Source: Candidatus Doudnabacteria bacterium | GTDB taxonomy: Bacteria; Patescibacteriota; Doudnabacteria; UBA920; 2-01-FULL-46-14 | Assembly: GCA_023246055.1 (NCBI GenBank) | Contig: JAHFJD010000001.1 | Location: 2,781 to 66,780 of the forward strand | Length of the DNA: 64,000 nucleotides | Reading direction: 5' to 3' | Shown: one piece after another, positions 24,591-60,389 of the stretch | How the letters are laid out: every line of letters starts with the position of its first letter | Numbering within the stretch: the stretch's first letter is position 1 | Notes under the pieces: model-generated | Databases searched by the model: none | Told to the model about the DNA's origin: nothing | What the model saw: only the letters and a program-made list of their open reading frames with translations | Made by a program: the position numbers and the translations under genes

Positions 24591-24799
24591 CGGCCAAATA
24601 ATTATACCACGCAGTGGCCGGGCTTGATTTATTTTATTACCTTTGTTAGTATATGAAAACAATTGAATAAGTCTCAAGCAAGACTATTTAACTCTTAATT
24701 AACTACTAACTCTTAACCCTTGCCCGCCCTTCCGAAGCTTTAGCGCAGGAGGGCGCAATCAAAGTGGATACGGGTTAAGTATCCTTTTTTCTTACCAAA

Positions 24800-48560: not shown

Positions 48561-48620
48561 TGTCATTCCCGCGGAAGCGGGAATCCAGTTTCTGGATCCC
48601 AAATCAAGTTTGGGATGACA
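48561..48620. repeat. MITE-like element (family 2) with TGTCATTCC/GGGATGACA terminal inverted repeats, 11 nt upstream of grpE ATG
   Basis: tgtcattcccgcggaagcgggaatccagtttctggatcccaaatcaagtttgggatgaca. Confidence 0.6.
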
Positions 48621-49356
48621 ATACACTGAAATTAATTATTATTGCGGCTCCCAACCCAGATGCTAACATTTTCTTCACATACTCCAGCAGGGAAATATTC
48701 CTCGCGTATTTCATACGTTTCGGTCCAATGATGCCGATCACGCCTTTTTCGCCACGTGGCAAATTGACCCGGGTGACGACAAGGCTAAAATCTTTGGCCA
48801 GTGGCACTGGCGCTTCGCGGCCGATAAATGCTTTGACCTCTTGCAAATCTTTTTTTGCGAGCATGCTTCCATATTCAGAGACGTCATCAAGGAATCTCGC
48901 GATTTCTTTGACTTCGGCTGTTGACACATTCTCATCAATCACATTCGAGAGGCCAGTGGTGCTGGCATTTCCTGGCAACAGAGCAAATGCTGCGCCGTCA
49001 GCTTCACGCGCAAGCAATTTTGTGAGGCTCTTGCCAAGCTCTATATACTGGCGCTGCAGGTCCCGCAAATCCGCATTGAGCTTTTGCTGCTCGAGTCGGG
49101 ACAATTCCAGATGTTTCATGAGTTTATTTATAAAGAACCGGAAACCCTCATCTGTCGGGATGCGCCCGGCGCTAGTATGCGGCTGATAAATATAGCCAGA
49201 CTTCTCCAAAGCCTGCATTTCGTTTCGGATCGTGGCCGCGCTCACTGAAAAACCATATTTTTCAGAGAGTTCTACAGACCCGACTGGCTGGCCGGTAGCG
49301 GAATAGTCCTTGACAATCGCAGCCAGGATTTTCGCTTGTCGTTGGGTGATTTCCAT
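48604..49356 (-). CDS. hrcA: Heat-inducible transcription repressor HrcA
   Basis: 250 aa; N-terminal wHTH; HrcA family; CIRCE upstream. Confidence 0.9.
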   Translation of the reverse strand: MEITQRQAKILAAIVKDYSATGQPVGSVELSEKYGFSVSAATIRNEMQALEKSGYIYQPHTSAGRIPTDEGFRFFINKLMKHLELSRLEQQKLNADLRDLQRQYIELGKSLTKLLAREADGAAFALLPGNASTTGLSNVIDENVSTAEVKEIARFLDDVSEYGSMLAKKDLQEVKAFIGREAPVPLAKDFSLVVTRVNLPRGEKGVIGIIGPKRMKYARNISLLEYVKKMLASGLGAAIIINFSVLSSQT

Positions 49357-49438
49357 ATACTACGAAATACGAATCTCTACGAAAATACGAATAAAATTCA
49401 TGTTTCGTAATTTCGCATCCCTTTCGTATTTCGTAGTA
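49357..49438. repeat. TACGAA-rich element (family 3), copy D, abutting hrcA ATG
   Basis: atactacgaaatacgaatctctacgaaaatacgaataaaattcatgtttcgtaatttcgcatccctttcgtatttcgtagta. Confidence 0.7.
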
Positions 49439-49447
49439 ATTATAAAT

Positions 49448-49474
49448 TTAGCACTCAACCCTGTCAAGTGCTAA
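49448..49474. promoter_or_regulatory. CIRCE operator (HrcA binding site) TTAGCACTC-N9-AAGTGCTAA
   Basis: ttagcactcaaccctgtcaagtgctaa; 1 mismatch to consensus TTAGCACTC-N9-GAGTGCTAA. Confidence 0.8.
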
Positions 49475-49588
49475 TCCTCCTCGGTGAATTCATTGGTCGA
49501 TCGTACAGATCACGATAGTCCAGGGGCAAAAAACCAGTTCGTTGTTACCATACTAGTATGCTAATACAGCGGGAAAAGACAAGATCAT

Positions 49589-49999
49589 CTAAAGAGCTCG
49601 CAAAAATTCTGTTGGTGTGAGGGTGGTGATATGTTTATAGACCTTGAGGTTGAGCAATTCACGGTCACCGGTCACAATAAAATCACAGCCGCCATCCACG
49701 GCGGCTTCTAATACTCGGTTATCATCAGGGTCTGTTTTTAAGATCTCCACAGTAGAAATCGGATGGATTAACACAAAATTCTTTCGAACCTCCTCTTCGA
49801 TCAACGTAATGTCATCGCTGGCCATATCAAATTTTCTACCCAGCACATCTGTCAGTTCTGCCAAAAGGACTGGCGAGATAATCACTTCCAGTCCCTTCGT
49901 CAAGACCAGAGACAAAATCTTCCGCGGTTTGCCGCCGCGGGTAATCGCTGATACTAAAACGTTAGTGTCAAGAACGGCCTTTTTTAGATTTTCGACCAT
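49589..49999 (-). CDS. PIN-domain toxin (VapC-like)
   Basis: 136 aa; VLDTNVLVSAI N-terminal PIN motif, conserved acidic residues. Confidence 0.8.
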   Translation of the reverse strand: MVENLKKAVLDTNVLVSAITRGGKPRKILSLVLTKGLEVIISPVLLAELTDVLGRKFDMASDDITLIEEEVRKNFVLIHPISTVEILKTDPDDNRVLEAAVDGGCDFIVTGDRELLNLKVYKHITTLTPTEFLRAL

Positions 50000-50231
50000 G
50001 CCGGTACTCGTTGACTATTCGGTCCACGTCTGCCTCGCTTTTAATTCCCAGCCTTTTGGCAGCCTCTCTGCCCGCCCGAAAAATTCTGTCCCAGCTTTGC
50101 AGCTGCCTCAAACGAAGCTGAACCGCCTCGCGAATAAATTCGCTGCGATTCTTGTATTCCGCTTTGGCAGTCTGGTCAATCTCCTTAACTAGCCCCGCTG
50201 GGAGAGCAATGTTGAAGGTTTTAGTACTCAT
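49968..50231 (-). CDS. Ribbon-helix-helix antitoxin (CopG/VapB-like)
   Basis: 87 aa; NRSEFIREAVQLRL RHH signature; overlaps PIN gene. Confidence 0.75.
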   Translation of the reverse strand: MSTKTFNIALPAGLVKEIDQTAKAEYKNRSEFIREAVQLRLRQLQSWDRIFRAGREAAKRLGIKSEADVDRIVNEYRHGRKSKKGRS

Positions 50232-50255
50232 ACAAATATTGTATATAATAAATAC

Positions 50256-50275
50256 AACCCCGTCAAGTGCTAATC
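50256..50275. repeat. 20-bp direct repeat (AACCCCGTCAAGTGCTAATC) duplicating the right half of CIRCE (49457-49476)
   Basis: 19/20 identity with aaccctgtcaagtgctaatc; the two copies bracket the vapBC cassette. Confidence 0.7.
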
Positions 50276-50297
50276 AATCAACTTCTAAAGCTAAAAT

Positions 50298-50876
50298 TTA
50301 GTTTGCAAGCTCGGCTACCACAACGAACCGTTTTAGAGATGTGCCGACCGGGTAAGAGGTTTGCAGGGTCAAGAGCCGGCGGCCGTTCGTCTCCTGGGAG
50401 AGCACGGACAGATCGTCTTTGGCTACCACGCGCGTTTCTGTGACTTGGTAGACAAATTTTTCACCCTGACTGTTTGAGATATAGATATTTTGTCCTATCT
50501 GCATTTTAGGCAGCAGCGCAAACACGGTTTTGAAATGACCTTTGGACCAGGCATTGTCAGATGAATGGCCGAAAATGTAGACATTGCCAACCTCTCCAGC
50601 ATCGGCTGTACCAGGATAATGCACGACTCCGTCAATGAGGAGAGCTTGAAATTCAGATTCATTGACTGCAGTGGCATATAGTACCGGTACCGTAATATTC
50701 AGCGCCGGAATCATGAGCACATTCGGATCTATTTTTTCCCTAACGGAAATTTGTCTTGTTGGTTTCTCGCGGCGCAACACAAACTCGACGTTCTGGCGAA
50801 AGTAATCGAAATTCAAAAGCACCCACGCGGTTGCCACCGCGAGAATCAAAATCAAGATTCTTTTGATGTGGTTCAT
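50298..50876 (-). CDS. Sortase-family transpeptidase homologue with Ser in place of the TLxTC cysteine
   Basis: 192 aa; N-terminal TM; IFGHS (His), LLTLQTSYP where TLxTC expected, KRFVVVAEL (Arg). Confidence 0.55.
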
Positions 50877-53761
50877 TTCAGAGATCTCGCTAAATATTGT
50901 CCCGTGTAGGACCGTTTCACGCGGGCGACTTCTTCTGGCGTGCCTTCCGCCACAATCTCACCGCCCTTATCCCCGCCCTCGGGTCCCAGATCAATGACCC
51001 AGTCAGCGTATTTGATGACATGCAGATTGTGTTCGATCACGATCACAGTGTTGCCCTTGTCCACGAGCTTTGAAAGCACAGTGAGCAAGCGCTTCACGTC
51101 CTCGAAATGCAGTCCGGTGGTCGGTTCATCGAGGATGTACAGGGTTTTGCCGGTTTGGGTGCGGGCCAGTTCCGTGGCGAGTTTGATGCGCTGGGCTTCC
51201 CCGCCCGACAGGGTCGTGGCGCTTTGGCCGAGGTGCATGTAGCCAAGGCCGACCAGGGATAATACGTCGAGTTTGCGGTAAATAATGGGAATATTGCGGA
51301 AAAAGATTCGCGCCTCATCCACAGTCATTTCCAGGACATCAGAGATATTTTTGCCTTTGTAATGAATGTCTAGGGCTTCTTTGTTGTAACGTTTGCCCTT
51401 GCATTCTTCACAAGCCACATAGACGTCCGGCAGGAAATGCATTTCGATCTGGATCACGCCATCTCCAGCGCAAGCCTCGCAACGGCCACCTTTGACATTG
51501 AATGAAAATCGCCCGGGCTCATAGCCGCGCATTTTGGCTTCCGGTGTTTCGGCAAATAAATCACGGATATAGGTAAACACCCCGGTATAGGTTGCGGGGT
51601 TGGATCGCGGGGTGCGCCCGATTGGGGATTGATCGATGTTGATGACCTTGTCAATGTTATCAAGACCCAAGATTTTTTTGTGCTCACCGGGCTGGTCTTT
51701 GGCGTTATAGAAATAAGCGGATAAAGCCTTGGCCAAAATGTCATTGAGCAGAGTGGATTTTCCCGAACCGGACACGCCAGTGATACTGATAAATTTTCCC
51801 AAAGGGATGCTGACGTCCAAATTTCTCAAGTTGTGTTCGCGAGCGCCATAGATGGTGATTTTTTTGCCGTTACCGGTTCTGCGCCGGGCCGGGATCGGGA
51901 TGCTTTCCTGCCCCGCAAGGTAACGACCGGTGAGTGATGTAGGATTTTCTTTGATGTCAACTGGAGTGCCCGCAGCTACGACCTCACCTCCGTGTTTGCC
52001 AGCTCCGGGCCCAATGTCCACAACCCAGTCAGCGCTCGCTATGGTATCCTCGTCATGCTCCACAACGATCACGGTATTGCCGAGATCACGGAGTGTTCGC
52101 AGGGTATCGAGTAAACGATCATTGTCCCGTTGATGCAATCCGATCGACGGTTCGTCGAGAATATACAGGACTCCGGTCAGGCCGGACCCGATTTGGGTGG
52201 CGAGCCTGATGCGCTGGGCTTCCCCGCCCGAGAGCGTGTCAGCGCCGCGGTTCAGAGTTAAATATTCCAGACCGACATTGTCGAGGAAATTCAGCCGGGA
52301 CCGAATTTCCTTGATGATTTGCTTACCGATTTTCAAATCCTTCTCGGACAGCTGACCTGCGAGGAGTTCAAAGAATTTCCGCAGTGCATCTACAGTGAGG
52401 CTTGATACATCCATAATGGATTTGCCCGTCTCGCCTCGGCTCGCCGAGGTCGGATCCATAACCGTGACCGCTAATATTTCGGGACGGAGTCTTTTACCCT
52501 GACATGTGGGGCAGGTTTTGAGGCGCATGTATTGCTCAATTTCTGACCGCATGTAGTCCGAATCGGTTTCGCGATATCGGCGCATAAGATTTGGCACCAC
52601 GCCCTCAAAATCGAGATTGTTGTCTTTGGAGCCATAAAGAATAATGTCGAGAAATTTTTTGTTGAGTGTTTTTACCGGGACATTGGCCGAAAAGCCATGA
52701 GCTGTCGCGACGTCATCGATGATCCGATCATACCAGGATAACCTTGCCGTAGTTTTGCTCCACGGACGAATCGCGCCTTCAGCGAGGGACAATCGCGGAT
52801 TGGGAATCACGAGTTCTGGATCAACCTCAAGTTTGGTCCCGAGTCCCGTACAATCAGGACAAGCGCCATGCGGCGAGTTGAAGGAAAAATTTCGCGGATG
52901 AAGTTCTGCCAAACTGACATGTCCTTCGGGGCAAGCGAATTTCTGTGAAAGAGTTAGCGTCTGGTTTGTATCTGGAAAATAGACGACCGCGGTTTCATTT
53001 CCCAGATCGAGAGCAGTCTCCAAAGAGTCGCTGATGCGAGCCCGATCATTGCGCTCGATAGTCAAGCGATCCACCACCACATCCACTGAATGTTTTTTCT
53101 TTTTGTCGAGATCGGTTGCGAGTGCTTCTGCGATATCTATGAATGTGCCGTCGATTCGCACTCTGGCATAGCCGGCTTTTTTTATTTCCTCGAAGACGTG
53201 TTTGTGTTCTCCCTTGCGGTCGGATATGAAAGAGGCTAGGAGCATGAGTTTGGTGCCGCGGGGGTAGTCCAGGATTTGGTCGACCATGGCGGTCACGGTT
53301 TGGCCGGCAATTTTTTTCCCGCAAACTGGGCAATGCGGCACGCCGATCCGCGCAAACAGTAACCGCAAATAGTCATAGATCTCCGTAACCGTCCCCACTG
53401 TCGAGCGCGGATTATGGGAGGCAGATTTTTGGTCAATGGAAATCGCCGGACTAAGACCCTCGATTTGCTCGACGTCTGGTTTGTCCATGAGCCCTAAAAA
53501 TTGCCTGGCATAAGCCGAGAGACTCTCCACATATCGCCTCTGGCCCTCGGCATAAATCGTGTCAAAAGCCAAAGAGGATTTTCCAGAGCCGGAGATGCCG
53601 GTGAATACGATGAGTTTGTTACGCGGCAAATCCAGGTCAATGTTTTTGAGATTGTGAACCTTGGCCCCGCGGATTTTGATCAAACCAGCGCTCCCCCCTT
53701 CTGGCCTTAAAATAAGGGAGGAATGAGGCGGGTTATTAGATTTAGAATTACGTTTGGTCAT
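50873..53761 (-). CDS. uvrA: Excinuclease ABC subunit A
   Basis: 962 aa; two ABC ATPase modules, zinc fingers, UvrA signatures. Confidence 0.95.
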
Positions 53762-58715: not shown

Positions 58716-58833
58716 AAGGGCGCGTGGCGGAACTGGCCCGCCCAAATTTGCAAAGCAAATTTCAGTCGGGCAGGCAGATTTGCCCCGCATAGCTGGTGCC
58801 TGTATGGCGGAACTGGTATACGCGTACGTTCAC
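58716..58833 (+). other. Two tandem degenerate copies of the tRNA-Leu(CAG) 5' portion (pseudo-tRNA remnants)
   Basis: 58716-58800: GGGCGCGTGGCGGAACTGGCCCGCC... with Leu-like D-arm and variable arm but no T-arm; 58800-58833: 28 nt identical to tRNA positions 5-32 (GTATGGCGGAACTGGTATACGCGTACG). Confidence 0.55.
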
Positions 58834-60389
58834 CCCGCACTAACTCTTTGCAAGTTTAACAAATTACTTATTCTTGATGGGCGTATGGCGGAACTGGTAT
58901 ACGCGTACGCTTCAGGAGCGTATGGCCGCAAGGCCGTGAGAGTTCGAGTCTCTCTACGCCCACCACCCAAGTAATTTCTCCGATCGGCGATCAAGTCGTA
59001 AGGTTCTTTTAGCTTAAGGATCACATTTTCCGCGCTCACCAACCGGTTCGAGGTCAACGTTTCCACCAAACAATGCTTTTCTTCTTCATTTGCCATTTCG
59101 TAGCTTGAATATGCGGTTTTTGCGAGTTCGAGAACATTGAGGACGTGATCGGGAACGGCAGCCATTTTCTCTGGGGCTCCCAGCTGCTGCTCTAGATCTT
59201 TCTTCTCCAACAGCAGAAGCCGATTCCGATTGTCAAACGCTTCTTTATCGAGGACTTGATCCAGGTAGGCGTCGGTCAGGCGAGCCAACCGCTGTTCAAT
59301 GTTCGAAATCCGCAATCGCAAACCCTTCTGTGCCGATTCCGTATTCTGCTTCCAGTCCGCTTTCAGTTTTTCAATGGCTTGCCGAGCCCGGACTTCTTCC
59401 AGCGGCTCCAGTTCCAGCTTGAACAATTCCGCCCTAACAGCGTAGTCCACGGCCTCCTCTCGTACGCAACGGGTCGGACATGCCGAAGTATGGCAACGGT
59501 AATAAACATGGCCTTTCTGCCGCTCGCCGATCATGGTTGCCTGACAGAGGCTGCACGCCAGTAGCCGCCGGAAAGCAAACCAATGCCGGAAATTCCTCGG
59601 GTGATAACGTCCATCGAGTATGGCTTGCACACGATCGAAGGTAGGCTTCGGTACCAGCGGTACGTGAGCGCCGGGAAAGGATTCTCCAGTGCTGTGAATG
59701 AGAATCACACCGACATAGAAGGGATCCCGTAACATCAAGGCCCACCGGGCCCGCTGCACGGAGCGGTTCCTGGTGTTTCTCAAGCCTCGCTTCGTCATTT
59801 CCTCCGTCAGTTGATCAAGGTTGTATCTTCCGGATGCGTACAGATCGAAACCCAGACGAACGAGTGGCCCTTTGACCGGGTCGATGGCCTTGGGTTGACC
59901 GGCTCCTTGATCAAGGTAACCCAACGGGGCAGGGCGCGGATAGATACCTTGCTTGAGCCGGCCATAGAATCCTTTGCGCGTCTCTTCGCGTAGGTTTCGG
60001 ATATAGTCGGCGGCCACGACAGCTTGAATGTCAGCGGTCAGCCGCCCGCCGCGCGTGTTCAGATCCAGGCTTTCATTGGCAAACCAAACATCAGTCCCCT
60101 GATCGATGAGTTCTCCGAGATCCGCCCAGTCCCGAAGGTTCCTGGCGCTGCGGTCGATCTTGTGAATGACCACACCGGTCGCCTTGCCGGCTTTCAATGC
60201 TTTCAGCATTTGATTGAAAATCGGTCGTCCGCGTTTGGCAGCGGTTTCTCTTTCTTCAAACCATTCTCCAACATCGAACCCGCGGGTTCGGCAGAATCGC
60301 TCGATGGCGCCTCGCTGTTCTTGCAAAGAGACGCCTTTTTCGCCTTGTTTGGGCGTAGAAACACGGATGTAACCAAACACTTGTTTCAT
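58830..60389 (-). CDS. Large serine recombinase (resolvase/invertase N-terminal domain + recombinase + zinc-ribbon domains)
   Basis: 519 aa; YIRVSTPKQGEKGVSLQEQ catalytic Ser motif; C-terminal ~47 codons read antisense through tRNA-Leu so true stop may be earlier; high local GC. Confidence 0.85.
   Translation of the reverse strand: MKQVFGYIRVSTPKQGEKGVSLQEQRGAIERFCRTRGFDVGEWFEERETAAKRGRPIFNQMLKALKAGKATGVVIHKIDRSARNLRDWADLGELIDQGTDVWFANESLDLNTRGGRLTADIQAVVAADYIRNLREETRKGFYGRLKQGIYPRPAPLGYLDQGAGQPKAIDPVKGPLVRLGFDLYASGRYNLDQLTEEMTKRGLRNTRNRSVQRARWALMLRDPFYVGVILIHSTGESFPGAHVPLVPKPTFDRVQAILDGRYHPRNFRHWFAFRRLLACSLCQATMIGERQKGHVYYRCHTSACPTRCVREEAVDYAVRAELFKLELEPLEEVRARQAIEKLKADWKQNTESAQKGLRLRISNIEQRLARLTDAYLDQVLDKEAFDNRNRLLLLEKKDLEQQLGAPEKMAAVPDHVLNVLELAKTAYSSYEMANEEEKHCLVETLTSNRLVSAENVILKLKEPYDLIADRRNYLGGGRRETRTLTALRPYAPEAYAYTSSAIRPSRISNLLNLQRVSAG
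58879..58962 (+). tRNA. tRNA-Leu (anticodon CAG), CCA encoded
   Basis: GGGCGTATGGCGGAACTGGTATACGCGTACGCTTCAGGAGCGTATGGCCGCAAGGCCGTGAGAGTTCGAGTCTCTCTACGCCCA(CCA). Confidence 0.85.

What the first reader, a model, noticed from the sequence alone, without database searches (positions are those of the whole stretch)
49448..50283. VapBC toxin-antitoxin cassette inserted next to the hrcA CIRCE operator, bracketed by 20-bp direct repeats that duplicate half of CIRCE
A near-consensus CIRCE (TTAGCACTC-N9-AAGTGCTAA, 49448-49474) precedes hrcA. Its right half plus spacer (AACCCTGTCAAGTGCTAATC, 49457-49476) recurs as a direct repeat at 50256-50275 (19/20). The RHH-antitoxin/PIN-toxin pair (49589-50231) lies exactly between the two copies. 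This has the hallmarks of a cassette insertion with target duplication, or site-specific capture at the operator. The orphan half-CIRCE could still titrate HrcA.
Basis: seen in the sequence. Interest (0 to 1): 0.55.

Follow-up and report, generated by a model that had tools for sequence, protein, structure and literature searches.

The report
Toxin-antitoxin cassette splitting hrcA promoter
A small toxin-antitoxin gene pair was acquired horizontally and landed inside the promoter/operator of the heat-shock repressor gene hrcA in a Candidatus Doudnabacteria genome, duplicating 21 bases so that both the newcomer and hrcA have a promoter; this is a clear but fairly ordinary case of genome plasticity.

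Summary
A 21-nt direct repeat (20/21 identical) at 49456-49476 and 50255-50275 brackets an RHH-antitoxin/PIN_3-toxin operon. The downstream copy is part of a CIRCE operator (49448-49474) in front of hrcA-grpE-dnaK. All these genes are on the minus strand.

The upstream copy is fused to the cassette's own -10 and operator palindromes, giving a hybrid promoter for the toxin-antitoxin genes.

Three related Doudnabacteria loci (L004, L061, L046) show the empty site: sortase, a single CIRCE/promoter, then hrcA. A second genome (L060 and the P0003 contig) carries the same cassette. Its PIN is 91% identical and its non-coding flank 90.5% identical, next to an hrcA only 69% identical in DNA. That points to horizontal transfer to the same place.

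The sortase-hrcA gap is a hotspot. Other relatives hold AbiEii or MazE-Doc modules there, or unknown genes. Shorter orphan half-CIRCE copies with no toxin-antitoxin genes between them recur in at least six relatives.

The mechanism of duplication is unresolved (short-homology Campbell-type recombination, a staggered cut, or a site-specific recombinase). Interest is moderate. I file it as a new member of a known kind.

The parts
50255..50275 (-). Upstream copy of the 21-nt repeat (GATTAGCACTTGACGGGGTTG on the minus strand). It is the left CIRCE arm plus -35 plus 6 nt of spacer, and has no right arm (orphan half-operator).
   Evidence: It lies 22 nt after the sortase stop, where L004 has its single CIRCE.
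50238..50266 (-). Hybrid promoter of the toxin-antitoxin operon: -35 TTGACG (50261-50266, from the repeat), 17-nt spacer, -10 TACAAT (50238-50243, from the cassette). The ATG starts 6 nt after the -10, so the mRNA is probably leaderless.
   Evidence: Promoter scan, 10/12; sequence. The native cassette promoters in L063 and L056 have the same -10 and spacing but no half-CIRCE.
50230..50256 (-). Putative RHH operator: TGTAT-N7-ATACA overlapping ATACAA-TAT-TTGTAT, covering the -10 and the start codon. The homology to the cassette begins here (TG|TATTTA).
   Evidence: Read; conserved in L063 and, as ATACAATcATTGTAT, in L056. Its function is inferred.
49968..50231 (-). RHH (CopG-type) antitoxin gene, 87 aa.
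   Evidence: Pfam RHH_1, E 6e-8; homologues paired with PIN_3 genes in other genomes.
49589..49999 (-). PIN_3 / TIGR00305 toxin gene, 136 aa, overlapping the antitoxin gene by 32 nt.
   Evidence: Pfam PIN_3, E 1e-21; TIGR00305, E 3e-13. Acidic residues D11, E48, D93 and D112 are invariant in 18 homologues.
49477..49588 (-). Non-coding 3' flank that travels with the cassette. It includes the palindrome TTACCATACTAGTATGCTAA (49545-49564).
   Evidence: 90.5% nt identity to L060 nt 1-95, against 68.8% for hrcA. No significant RNA fold (z +0.9).
49456..49476 (-). Downstream copy of the 21-nt repeat (GATTAGCACTTGACAGGGTTG), part of the intact operator/promoter.
49448..49474 (.). CIRCE operator. On the minus strand it reads TTAGCACTT-GACAGGGTT-GAGTGCTAA. 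Its one mismatch to the consensus is the first T of the -35 hexamer.
   Evidence: The same operator with an embedded -35 is seen across the hrcA loci; 41 of the strict 12-mer hits carry a right arm.
49439..49467 (-). hrcA promoter: TTGACA (49462-49467), 17 nt, TATAAT (49439-49444); 12/12 to consensus.
49357..49433 (-). Structured hrcA 5' leader made of TACGAA repeats. It is a second indel relative to the empty-site relatives.
   Evidence: Fold -27 kcal/mol, z -4.3. Absent in L004 and L061; a similar leader is present in L053.
48604..49356 (-). hrcA (250 aa), first gene of hrcA-grpE-dnaK.
   Evidence: Pfam HrcA, E 1e-17; ORFs.
50298..50876 (-). Sortase gene, the conserved upstream neighbour that fixes the position of the ancestral site.
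   Evidence: Pfam Sortase, E 3e-24; synteny uvrA-sortase-hrcA.

Best explanation
The RHH-PIN_3 toxin-antitoxin (TA) operon, together with about 110 nt of 3' non-coding flank (778 bp in all, 49477-50254), is a horizontally acquired cassette. It integrated inside the hrcA promoter/operator of a Candidatus Doudnabacteria genome.

The ancestral site was sortase, about 21 nt, a CIRCE with the -35 TTGACA embedded in it, TATAAT, then hrcA. Integration left 21 nt of this site (left CIRCE arm, -35, and 6 nt of spacer) on both sides of the insert.

The downstream copy continues into the right CIRCE arm and the TATAAT box. hrcA-grpE-dnaK therefore keeps an intact HrcA-repressible consensus promoter. The upstream copy lost the right arm. 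It is joined, at a shared TG, to the cassette's own operator palindromes and its -10 box (TACAAT). The TA operon is thus driven by a hybrid promoter: a host -35 and a cassette -10/operator. It is probably autoregulated by the RHH protein and transcribed as a leaderless mRNA.

Shown: the repeat, the two promoters, the empty sites, the cassette's native promoter elsewhere, and the much higher similarity of the cassette than of hrcA between two genomes.

Inferred: the direction of events; the mechanism, for which I favour Campbell-type or illegitimate recombination through the short shared sequence ATTAGCACTTGAC...TG over transposition; autoregulation; and that the orphan half-operator does not bind HrcA usefully. 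The 21-nt repeats would also allow precise deletion, restoring the single CIRCE.
For: - Repeat and genes.
- Both copies hold a -35 at 17 nt from a -10. The hrcA promoter scores 12/12 and the TA promoter 10/12.
- Empty sites with a single CIRCE directly after sortase: L004, L061 and L046. The homology break is exactly after GGGTTG.
- L063 carries the same cassette (RHH 90% aa identity, 82% nt identity). Its native promoter is catcTTGACAgatatgtatttaacataTACAAT with no half-CIRCE. L056 (RHH 68%, PIN 53%) sits at an unrelated locus after rpoC, with TTGACA-17-TACAAT and a palindrome. The -10 and operator therefore belong to the cassette, and the -35 and its upstream sequence belong to the host.
- Horizontal transfer: the P0003 contig and L060 have PIN 91% identical and the RHH in the same 90% cluster. 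The 3' non-coding flank is 90.5% identical, while hrcA is 68.8% and grpE 69.2% identical in DNA. Closer relatives of the window (HrcA 78-84%) lack the cassette.
- In both genomes the right junction is immediately before ATTAGCACTTGAC.
- Hotspot: the sortase-to-hrcA gap ranges from 86 to 2335 bp. It holds AbiEii (L062), MazE-Doc (L006) and other cargo.
- The independent assembly L055 has the same structure.
Against: - There is no transposase or integrase in or next to the insert. A 21-bp target duplication is longer than typical transposon duplications, so the enzymology is unknown.
- Orphan half-CIRCE copies exist in relatives with no TA gene between them, so a pre-existing half-site cannot be fully excluded.
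- The left junction of the cassette in the second genome (P0003 contig) could not be read because no DNA was available.
- GC content of the cassette is not anomalous. That fits a donor from the same phylum but gives no independent support.
- No expression or binding data exist.
Confidence: 0.7

Rival explanations
1. Site-specific capture. The left half of CIRCE, (G)ATTAGCACTTGAC, acts as an att-like core for a recombinase supplied in trans. Small cargo elements (the RHH-PIN cassette and a roughly 90-125-nt GC-rich hairpin element) integrate there repeatedly, each leaving the core on both sides.
For: - The right junction of the cassette lies at the same base before ATTAGCACTTGAC in two genomes whose hrcA genes are only 69% identical.
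- In L001, L009, L010, L060 and L062 a hairpin element with inverted ends (CCTCCTTCG.../...CGTAGGAGG; fold -37.9 kcal/mol, z -5.4) is bracketed by two copies of the half-site. The left copy always ends right after TTGAC.
- In L001 and L010 the orphan and the full site share the variant TTATCAC.
- A large serine recombinase gene lies 8.5 kb away.
Against: - No recombinase is linked to the cassette. Large serine recombinases share only a 2-bp core, so they do not explain 21-bp repeats (established knowledge).
- The length of the duplicated segment differs between cases (12-21 nt).
- The hairpin elements could descend from one old insertion.
- L063 and L056 show the cassette family at other sites with an ordinary promoter.
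- L011 and L053 have no clear inverted ends.
Confidence: 0.15
2. Pre-existing half-site. The lineage already had an orphan half-CIRCE upstream of the full CIRCE, as many relatives do, and the TA cassette simply inserted between the two copies without creating any duplication.
For: Orphan half-sites 54-125 nt upstream of the full CIRCE, with no gene between, occur in L001/5/8, L009, L010, L011, L012, L053, L060 and L062.
Against: - The closest relatives without the cassette (L061 at 84%, L004 at 83%, and also L064 and L066) have no orphan.
- In all relatives the identity between orphan and CIRCE stops right after TTGAC. In the window it runs 7 nt further (GGGGTTG against AGGGTTG) and is 20/21 overall, which suggests a young and different duplication.
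- The upstream copy sits where the single CIRCE sits in L004 relative to sortase.
- No remnant of the GC-rich hairpin follows the upstream copy.
Confidence: 0.1
3. Selected regulatory element. The half-CIRCE over the TA promoter is kept because HrcA binds it, so the toxin-antitoxin operon is heat-shock regulated or the site titrates HrcA.
For: - The half-arm lies directly upstream of, and abuts, the -35 of the TA promoter.
- It is unchanged between the window and L055, although the PIN gene differs at several positions.
- Orphan half-sites recur in relatives.
Against: - CIRCE is an inverted repeat, which implies a dimer that needs both arms; the right arm here matches 2/9.
- The window and L055 are only about 2% diverged, so conservation of 21 nt says little.
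- The native cassette promoters lack any half-CIRCE.
- Nothing was tested by binding.
Confidence: 0.05

Closest known systems
Type II VapBC-like toxin-antitoxin modules (RHH/CopG antitoxin with PIN-domain toxin)
   Same: The antitoxin gene comes first and overlaps the toxin gene. The antitoxin is a small RHH DNA-binding protein. The PIN toxin has four conserved acidic residues. A palindromic operator lies over the promoter. The phylogenetic distribution is patchy and indicates horizontal transfer.
   Different: The toxin belongs to PIN_3 / TIGR00305 and only marginally matches the classical PIN model PF01850 (23.7 bits against a cut-off of 23.6). The promoter is a chimera with a host operator half. 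Activity was not tested.
HrcA/CIRCE heat-shock regulon (hrcA-grpE-dnaK operon preceded by TTAGCACTC-N9-GAGTGCTAA; consensus as cited in PMC545781)
   Same: One full CIRCE precedes hrcA-grpE-dnaK(-dnaJ), and an HrcA homologue is present.
   Different: In this clade the CIRCE overlaps the -35 and the spacer of the promoter (TTAGCACTTGACA-N5-GAGTGCTAA-N4-TATAAT). HrcA is short (about 250 aa). An extra orphan left arm sits 799 bp upstream.
Campbell-type or att-core integration, and insertions flanked by short direct repeats (tyrosine-integrase islands, XerCD-dependent IMEX elements at dif)
   Same: The insert is bracketed by identical direct repeats that are part of the target. A precise empty site exists in relatives. 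The target is a palindromic protein-binding site.
   Different: No integrase is linked to the insert. The insert is only 778 bp. The repeat length differs from the related orphan copies. The mechanism is not shown.
MITE/REP-like palindromic elements with flanking duplications
   Same: The GC-rich hairpin element between the orphan half-site and CIRCE in relatives has inverted ends and flanking direct repeats. A related hairpin lies at window 24723-24755.
   Different: It is not present at the finding itself. Flanking repeats of 12-19 nt are longer than usual MITE duplications. Copy number in these genomes is unknown.

Membership tests
Type II toxin-antitoxin, VapBC-like (RHH + PIN) | Toxin with a PIN-domain fold and sequence signature | tested here: met
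   PF13470 PIN_3 at 78 bits (cut-off 27); TIGR00305 at 49.9 bits (cut-off 29.15); PF01850 at 23.7 bits (cut-off 23.6).
Type II toxin-antitoxin, VapBC-like (RHH + PIN) | Conserved acidic catalytic residues of the PIN domain | tested here: met
   D11, E48, D93 and D112 are invariant in an alignment of 18 homologues. Their assignment to the active site is by analogy only.
Type II toxin-antitoxin, VapBC-like (RHH + PIN) | Small DNA-binding antitoxin encoded immediately upstream and co-transcribed | tested here: met
   RHH_1 at 32.7 bits (cut-off 20.5). The genes overlap by 32 nt on the same strand. The same pairing occurs in L055, L056-L059, L063 and the P0003 contig.
Type II toxin-antitoxin, VapBC-like (RHH + PIN) | Toxicity neutralised by the antitoxin; RNase activity | not testable with these tools
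   Needs expression and biochemical assays.
HrcA/CIRCE operator | Inverted repeat TTAGCACTC-N9-GAGTGCTAA upstream of a chaperone operon | tested here: met
   49448-49474 matches with 1 mismatch and is the only site in the window. It lies upstream of hrcA-grpE-dnaK.
HrcA/CIRCE operator | Both arms present (applied to the upstream copy at 50255-50275) | tested here: not met
   The right-arm position reads GTATTTATT, 2/9 matches to GAGTGCTAA. The upstream copy is therefore a half-site, not a CIRCE.
HrcA/CIRCE operator | Bound by HrcA | not testable with these tools
   Needs gel-shift or ChIP.
Transposon-type insertion with target-site duplication | Direct repeats of target sequence flanking the insert, with a single copy at the empty site | tested here: met
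   L004, L061 and L046 have a single copy.
Transposon-type insertion with target-site duplication | Terminal inverted repeats and/or a transposase in the insert | tested here: not met
   The only ORFs are the RHH and PIN genes. No terminal inverted repeats of the insert appear in the repeat search.
Integrase-mediated (att core) integration | A linked tyrosine or serine recombinase | tested here: not met
   None lies between uvrA and dnaJ. The nearest recombinase is a large serine recombinase at 58830-60389, separated from the insert by uvrA, uvrC and a solute-binding-protein gene.
Integrase-mediated (att core) integration | The same core sequence used in independent integrations | tested here: inconclusive
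   The right junction lies before ATTAGCACTTGAC in both the window and L060. Hairpin elements are bracketed by the same core in several loci. Independence of these events is not established, and the left junction in the second genome is unavailable.

The most novel reading that the evidence does not exclude
The left half of the CIRCE operator, with its embedded -35 (ATTAGCACTTGAC), is a recurrent, sequence-specific integration site in Candidatus Doudnabacteria. Small integrase-less cassettes (a toxin-antitoxin operon and a GC-rich hairpin element) are inserted and excised there by a recombinase acting in trans or by the repeats themselves. Each event regenerates a working heat-shock promoter and donates a -35 to the cargo. 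This would be a promoter-capturing cassette system aimed at a stress operator.
Probability: 0.15. Interest if true: 0.7.

Novelty: new member of a known kind. Interest (0 to 1): 0.4.

Why it matters
This is a cleanly documented example, with filled and empty sites, of how a selfish toxin-antitoxin cassette enters a reduced CPR genome without breaking an essential stress operon. The duplication rebuilds the hrcA promoter/operator and at the same time gives the newcomer a -35.

It also shows that in this clade CIRCE and the -35 hexamer are fused, and that the sortase-hrcA gap is a hotspot for toxin-antitoxin and defence cargo.

If the half-operator proved to be a true recombination target, it would define a new kind of small-cassette integration site. 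As it stands, the case is instructive rather than surprising.

Tried and rejected
- Chance repeat: rejected.
- Common intergenic motif: rejected. There are two copies in the window, and the hits in related loci listed with context lie upstream of hrcA.
- Assembly artefact: rejected, because the independent assembly L055 has the same structure.
- Known RNA family in the region or in the hairpin elements: none at Rfam gathering thresholds.
- Terminator in the cassette's 3' flank: none was found, and the flank does not fold better than shuffles.
- Compositional anomaly of the cassette: none.
- Exact look-up of the window's PIN protein found nothing, although a 100% identical protein, P0001, exists.
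- The DNA of the second cassette-bearing contig (ERZ27297570) could not be fetched. Only its right part was recovered, through L060. The RHH search gave L063 instead, which turned out to show the native promoter.
- Literature searches for toxin-antitoxin cassettes flanked by direct repeats and for CIRCE half-sites gave nothing relevant beyond the CIRCE consensus.
- Transposon reading: rejected, because the insert has no terminal inverted repeats and no transposase.
- A regular expression for the full promoter architecture was mis-spaced and returned zero. I rely instead.

Full report
**Layout.** All genes around the finding lie on the minus strand. In the direction of transcription the order is uvrA (50873-53761), sortase (50298-50876), an 87-aa RHH protein (49968-50231), a 136-aa PIN_3 protein (49589-49999), hrcA (48604-49356), grpE, dnaK and dnaJ. 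The organism is a Candidatus Doudnabacteria (Patescibacteria/CPR). The best genome match for HrcA is a Doudnabacteria MAG at 79% identity.

The direct repeat is 21 nt, at 49456-49476 and 50255-50275, with 20/21 identical. With up to three mismatches it occurs only at these two places in 64 kb. The number expected from shuffles is 0.03. The downstream copy is part of the only CIRCE in the window, at 49448-49474, which has one mismatch to TTAGCACTC-N9-GAGTGCTAA (consensus as cited in PMC545781). The RHH and PIN genes and a 112-nt non-coding tail fill the 778 bp between the copies. An independent assembly, L055 (97.8% nt identity), has the same structure, including the single A/G difference between the copies. 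The repeat is therefore not an assembly artefact.

**What the repeat is.** On the transcribed strand the hrcA control region reads GATTAGCACTTGACAGGGTTGAGTGCTAAATTTATAAT. The -35 hexamer TTGACA starts at the last base of the left CIRCE arm. The right arm lies in the spacer, and TATAAT follows at 17 nt, a 12/12 sigma-70 consensus.

- This fused operator/promoter is the rule in the clade. Among hits to the strict 12-mer TTAGCACTTGAC, 41 carry a right arm at the proper distance.
- The one "mismatch" to the CIRCE consensus is the T that creates the -35.
- The duplicated 21-mer is therefore the left arm, the -35 and 6 nt of spacer.
- The upstream copy reads GATTAGCACTTGACGGGGTTG|TATTTATTATATACAATATTTGTATG. 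That is TTGACG, 17 nt, then TACAAT (10/12), with the RHH start codon 6 nt after the -10.

**Which part of the hybrid promoter came from where.** L063 carries the same cassette (RHH 90% aa identity, 82% nt identity). Its upstream sequence is catcTTGACAgatatgtatttaacataTACAATatctgtATG, with no half-CIRCE. L056, a Doudnabacteria genome with a 53%/68% identical pair after rpoC, has TTGACA-17-TACAAT followed by the palindrome ATACAATcATTGTAT.

- The -10 box and the palindromes (TGTAT-N7-ATACA and ATACAA-TAT-TTGTAT, 50230-50256) therefore belong to the cassette. They are the likely RHH operator.
- Everything from GGGT leftwards is host sequence.
- The junction lies at a TG shared by both parents.
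- The native cassette promoter and the CIRCE promoter also share TTGACAG.

**Empty sites.** uvrA-(sortase)-hrcA synteny is widespread.

- In L061 (HrcA 84% identical), L004 (83%) and L046, sortase is followed directly by one CIRCE/promoter and hrcA.
- In L004 the motif starts 21 nt after the sortase stop. In the window the upstream half-copy starts 22 nt after it. Alignment shows homology breaking exactly after GGGTTG.

**Horizontal transfer.** A 2774-bp ENA contig carries RHH, PIN (91% identical to the window's) and hrcA in the same order. Its HrcA (P0134) is only 72% identical to the window's, and no sampled HrcA is closer to it than 72%.

- The Logan contig L060 carries the same hrcA with 297 nt upstream. 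Its first 95 nt are 90.5% identical to the window's cassette tail. hrcA and grpE are 68.8% and 69.2% identical in DNA.
- Lineages closer to the window (HrcA 78-84%) lack the cassette.
- The cassette has therefore moved between diverged lineages and sits at the hrcA operator in both.
- In L060 the tail abuts ATTAGCACTTGAC at the same base as in the window. There the motif is an orphan half-site, followed by a 125-nt GC-rich element and then the full CIRCE.

**A hotspot with recurrent half-sites.** The sortase-hrcA gap ranges from 86 to 2335 bp. Besides the RHH-PIN pair it holds the following cargo:

- an AbiEii-type module (L062);
- a MazE-Doc module (L006);
- unknown ORFs (L001, L002);
- a 73-aa CxxC protein (L064, L066);
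- metabolic genes (L068).

Orphan left half-CIRCE copies lie 54-125 nt upstream of the full CIRCE, with no gene between, in L001/5/8, L009, L010, L011, L012, L053, L060 and L062. Their identity to the full site always stops right after TTGAC. The intervening sequence is a GC-rich element that folds as one long hairpin in L001 (-37.9 kcal/mol, z -5.4).

- The window's copy extends 7 nt further.
- It is nearly identical to its partner (20/21).
- Its closest cassette-free relatives have no orphan.

**Mechanism.** The insert has no transposase, no integrase and no terminal inverted repeats. The nearest recombinase is a large serine recombinase 8.5 kb away, beyond uvrA and uvrC, and that enzyme family does not leave 21-bp repeats.

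I favour integration through short shared sequence. One route is a circular or linear donor carrying ...ATTAGCACTTGAC at its right end and TTGACAG..TG at its promoter, recombining with the CIRCE promoter. That would give exactly the observed duplication. A staggered cut or a trans-acting site-specific recombinase cannot be excluded.

The functional consequences are inferred:

- hrcA keeps full HrcA control.
- The TA operon gains a strong -35.
- No terminator separates PIN from the hrcA promoter, so read-through into CIRCE is possible.
- The half-operator alone is unlikely to bind HrcA.
- The repeats allow precise loss of the cassette.

**The toxin-antitoxin pair itself is ordinary.** It has RHH_1 and PIN_3/TIGR00305 domains, overlapping genes, and invariant D11, E48, D93 and D112. 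Its GC content matches its surroundings.

**Verdict.** The case is refined to a promoter/operator duplication that creates a hybrid promoter. Its kind is known (a mobile TA cassette in an intergenic hotspot). The open, more novel possibility is that the CIRCE half is a specific integration core.

Noticed in passing
window 49357-49433 (minus strand): hrcA has an 84-nt leader built of TACGAA(A/T) direct and inverted repeats. It folds into a long hairpin (-27 kcal/mol, z -4.3) that ends 8 nt before the AUG. The closest relatives (L004, L061) have 11-14-nt leaders instead. L053 has a similar TACGAA-repeat leader (z -3.6), and L019 shows a trace of one. It could be a thermosensor or a regulator-binding array.
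   Followed up: partly
L001 3844-3975; L009 512-653; L010 1412-1500; L060 96-268; L062 2806-2935; window 24723-24755: A GC-rich hairpin family (CCCTCCTKCGC-TRAAGCTTCGG-AAGGGCGGG...CGTAGGAGG) sits between an orphan half-CIRCE and the full CIRCE in several relatives. It has inverted ends and flanking direct repeats, so it looks MITE-like. One short copy lies elsewhere in the window. It has no Rfam match.
   Followed up: partly
window 58830-60389 (minus strand) and tRNA 58879-58962 (plus strand): A 519-aa large serine recombinase (Resolvase + Recombinase + Zn_ribbon_recom domains). Its 3' end overlaps an 84-nt tRNA gene on the other strand. This may be the edge of an integrated element.
   Followed up: no
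window 49545-49564: A 20-nt palindrome, TTACCATACTAGTATGCTAA, lies in the cassette's non-coding tail. It is identical in L060 although the flank is 9.5% diverged overall. It may be a protein-binding site.
   Followed up: no
L062 676-720 and 725-2633: An AbiEii-type module lies in the same sortase-hrcA gap. It is preceded by tctaTTGACAGGGTGtttcatttttgaTACACT. This -35 and its next four bases match the CIRCE spacer (TTGACAGGGT), hinting at an insertion at the same point as in the window.
   Followed up: partly
L006 1865-2481 (minus strand); L019 2041-2376 (minus strand): Other cargo in the same gap: a MazE-antitoxin/Doc(Fic) pair in L006 and a bAvd-like protein in L019. bAvd-like proteins are often accessory to diversity-generating retroelements.
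   Followed up: no
L064 3015-3185; L066 1320-1490; L068 75-250: A conserved structured-looking leader follows sortase (...CAGTTTT.CTTTTA...GATGGTTGGCTGATTTGCG...GGCCGGTTTTTT). It precedes a 73-aa CxxC protein in L064 and L066, and an aminotransferase operon in L068. It may be a riboswitch or attenuator.
   Followed up: no
L027, L028, L032, L033, L035, L040, L041, L049 (upstream of hrcA): More distant relatives have two CIRCEs at hrcA: one over the -35 and spacer, and a second just after the -10. Several loci (L010, L037, L053) have both arms changed to TTATCAC...GTGATAA, suggesting a shift in HrcA specificity.
   Followed up: no
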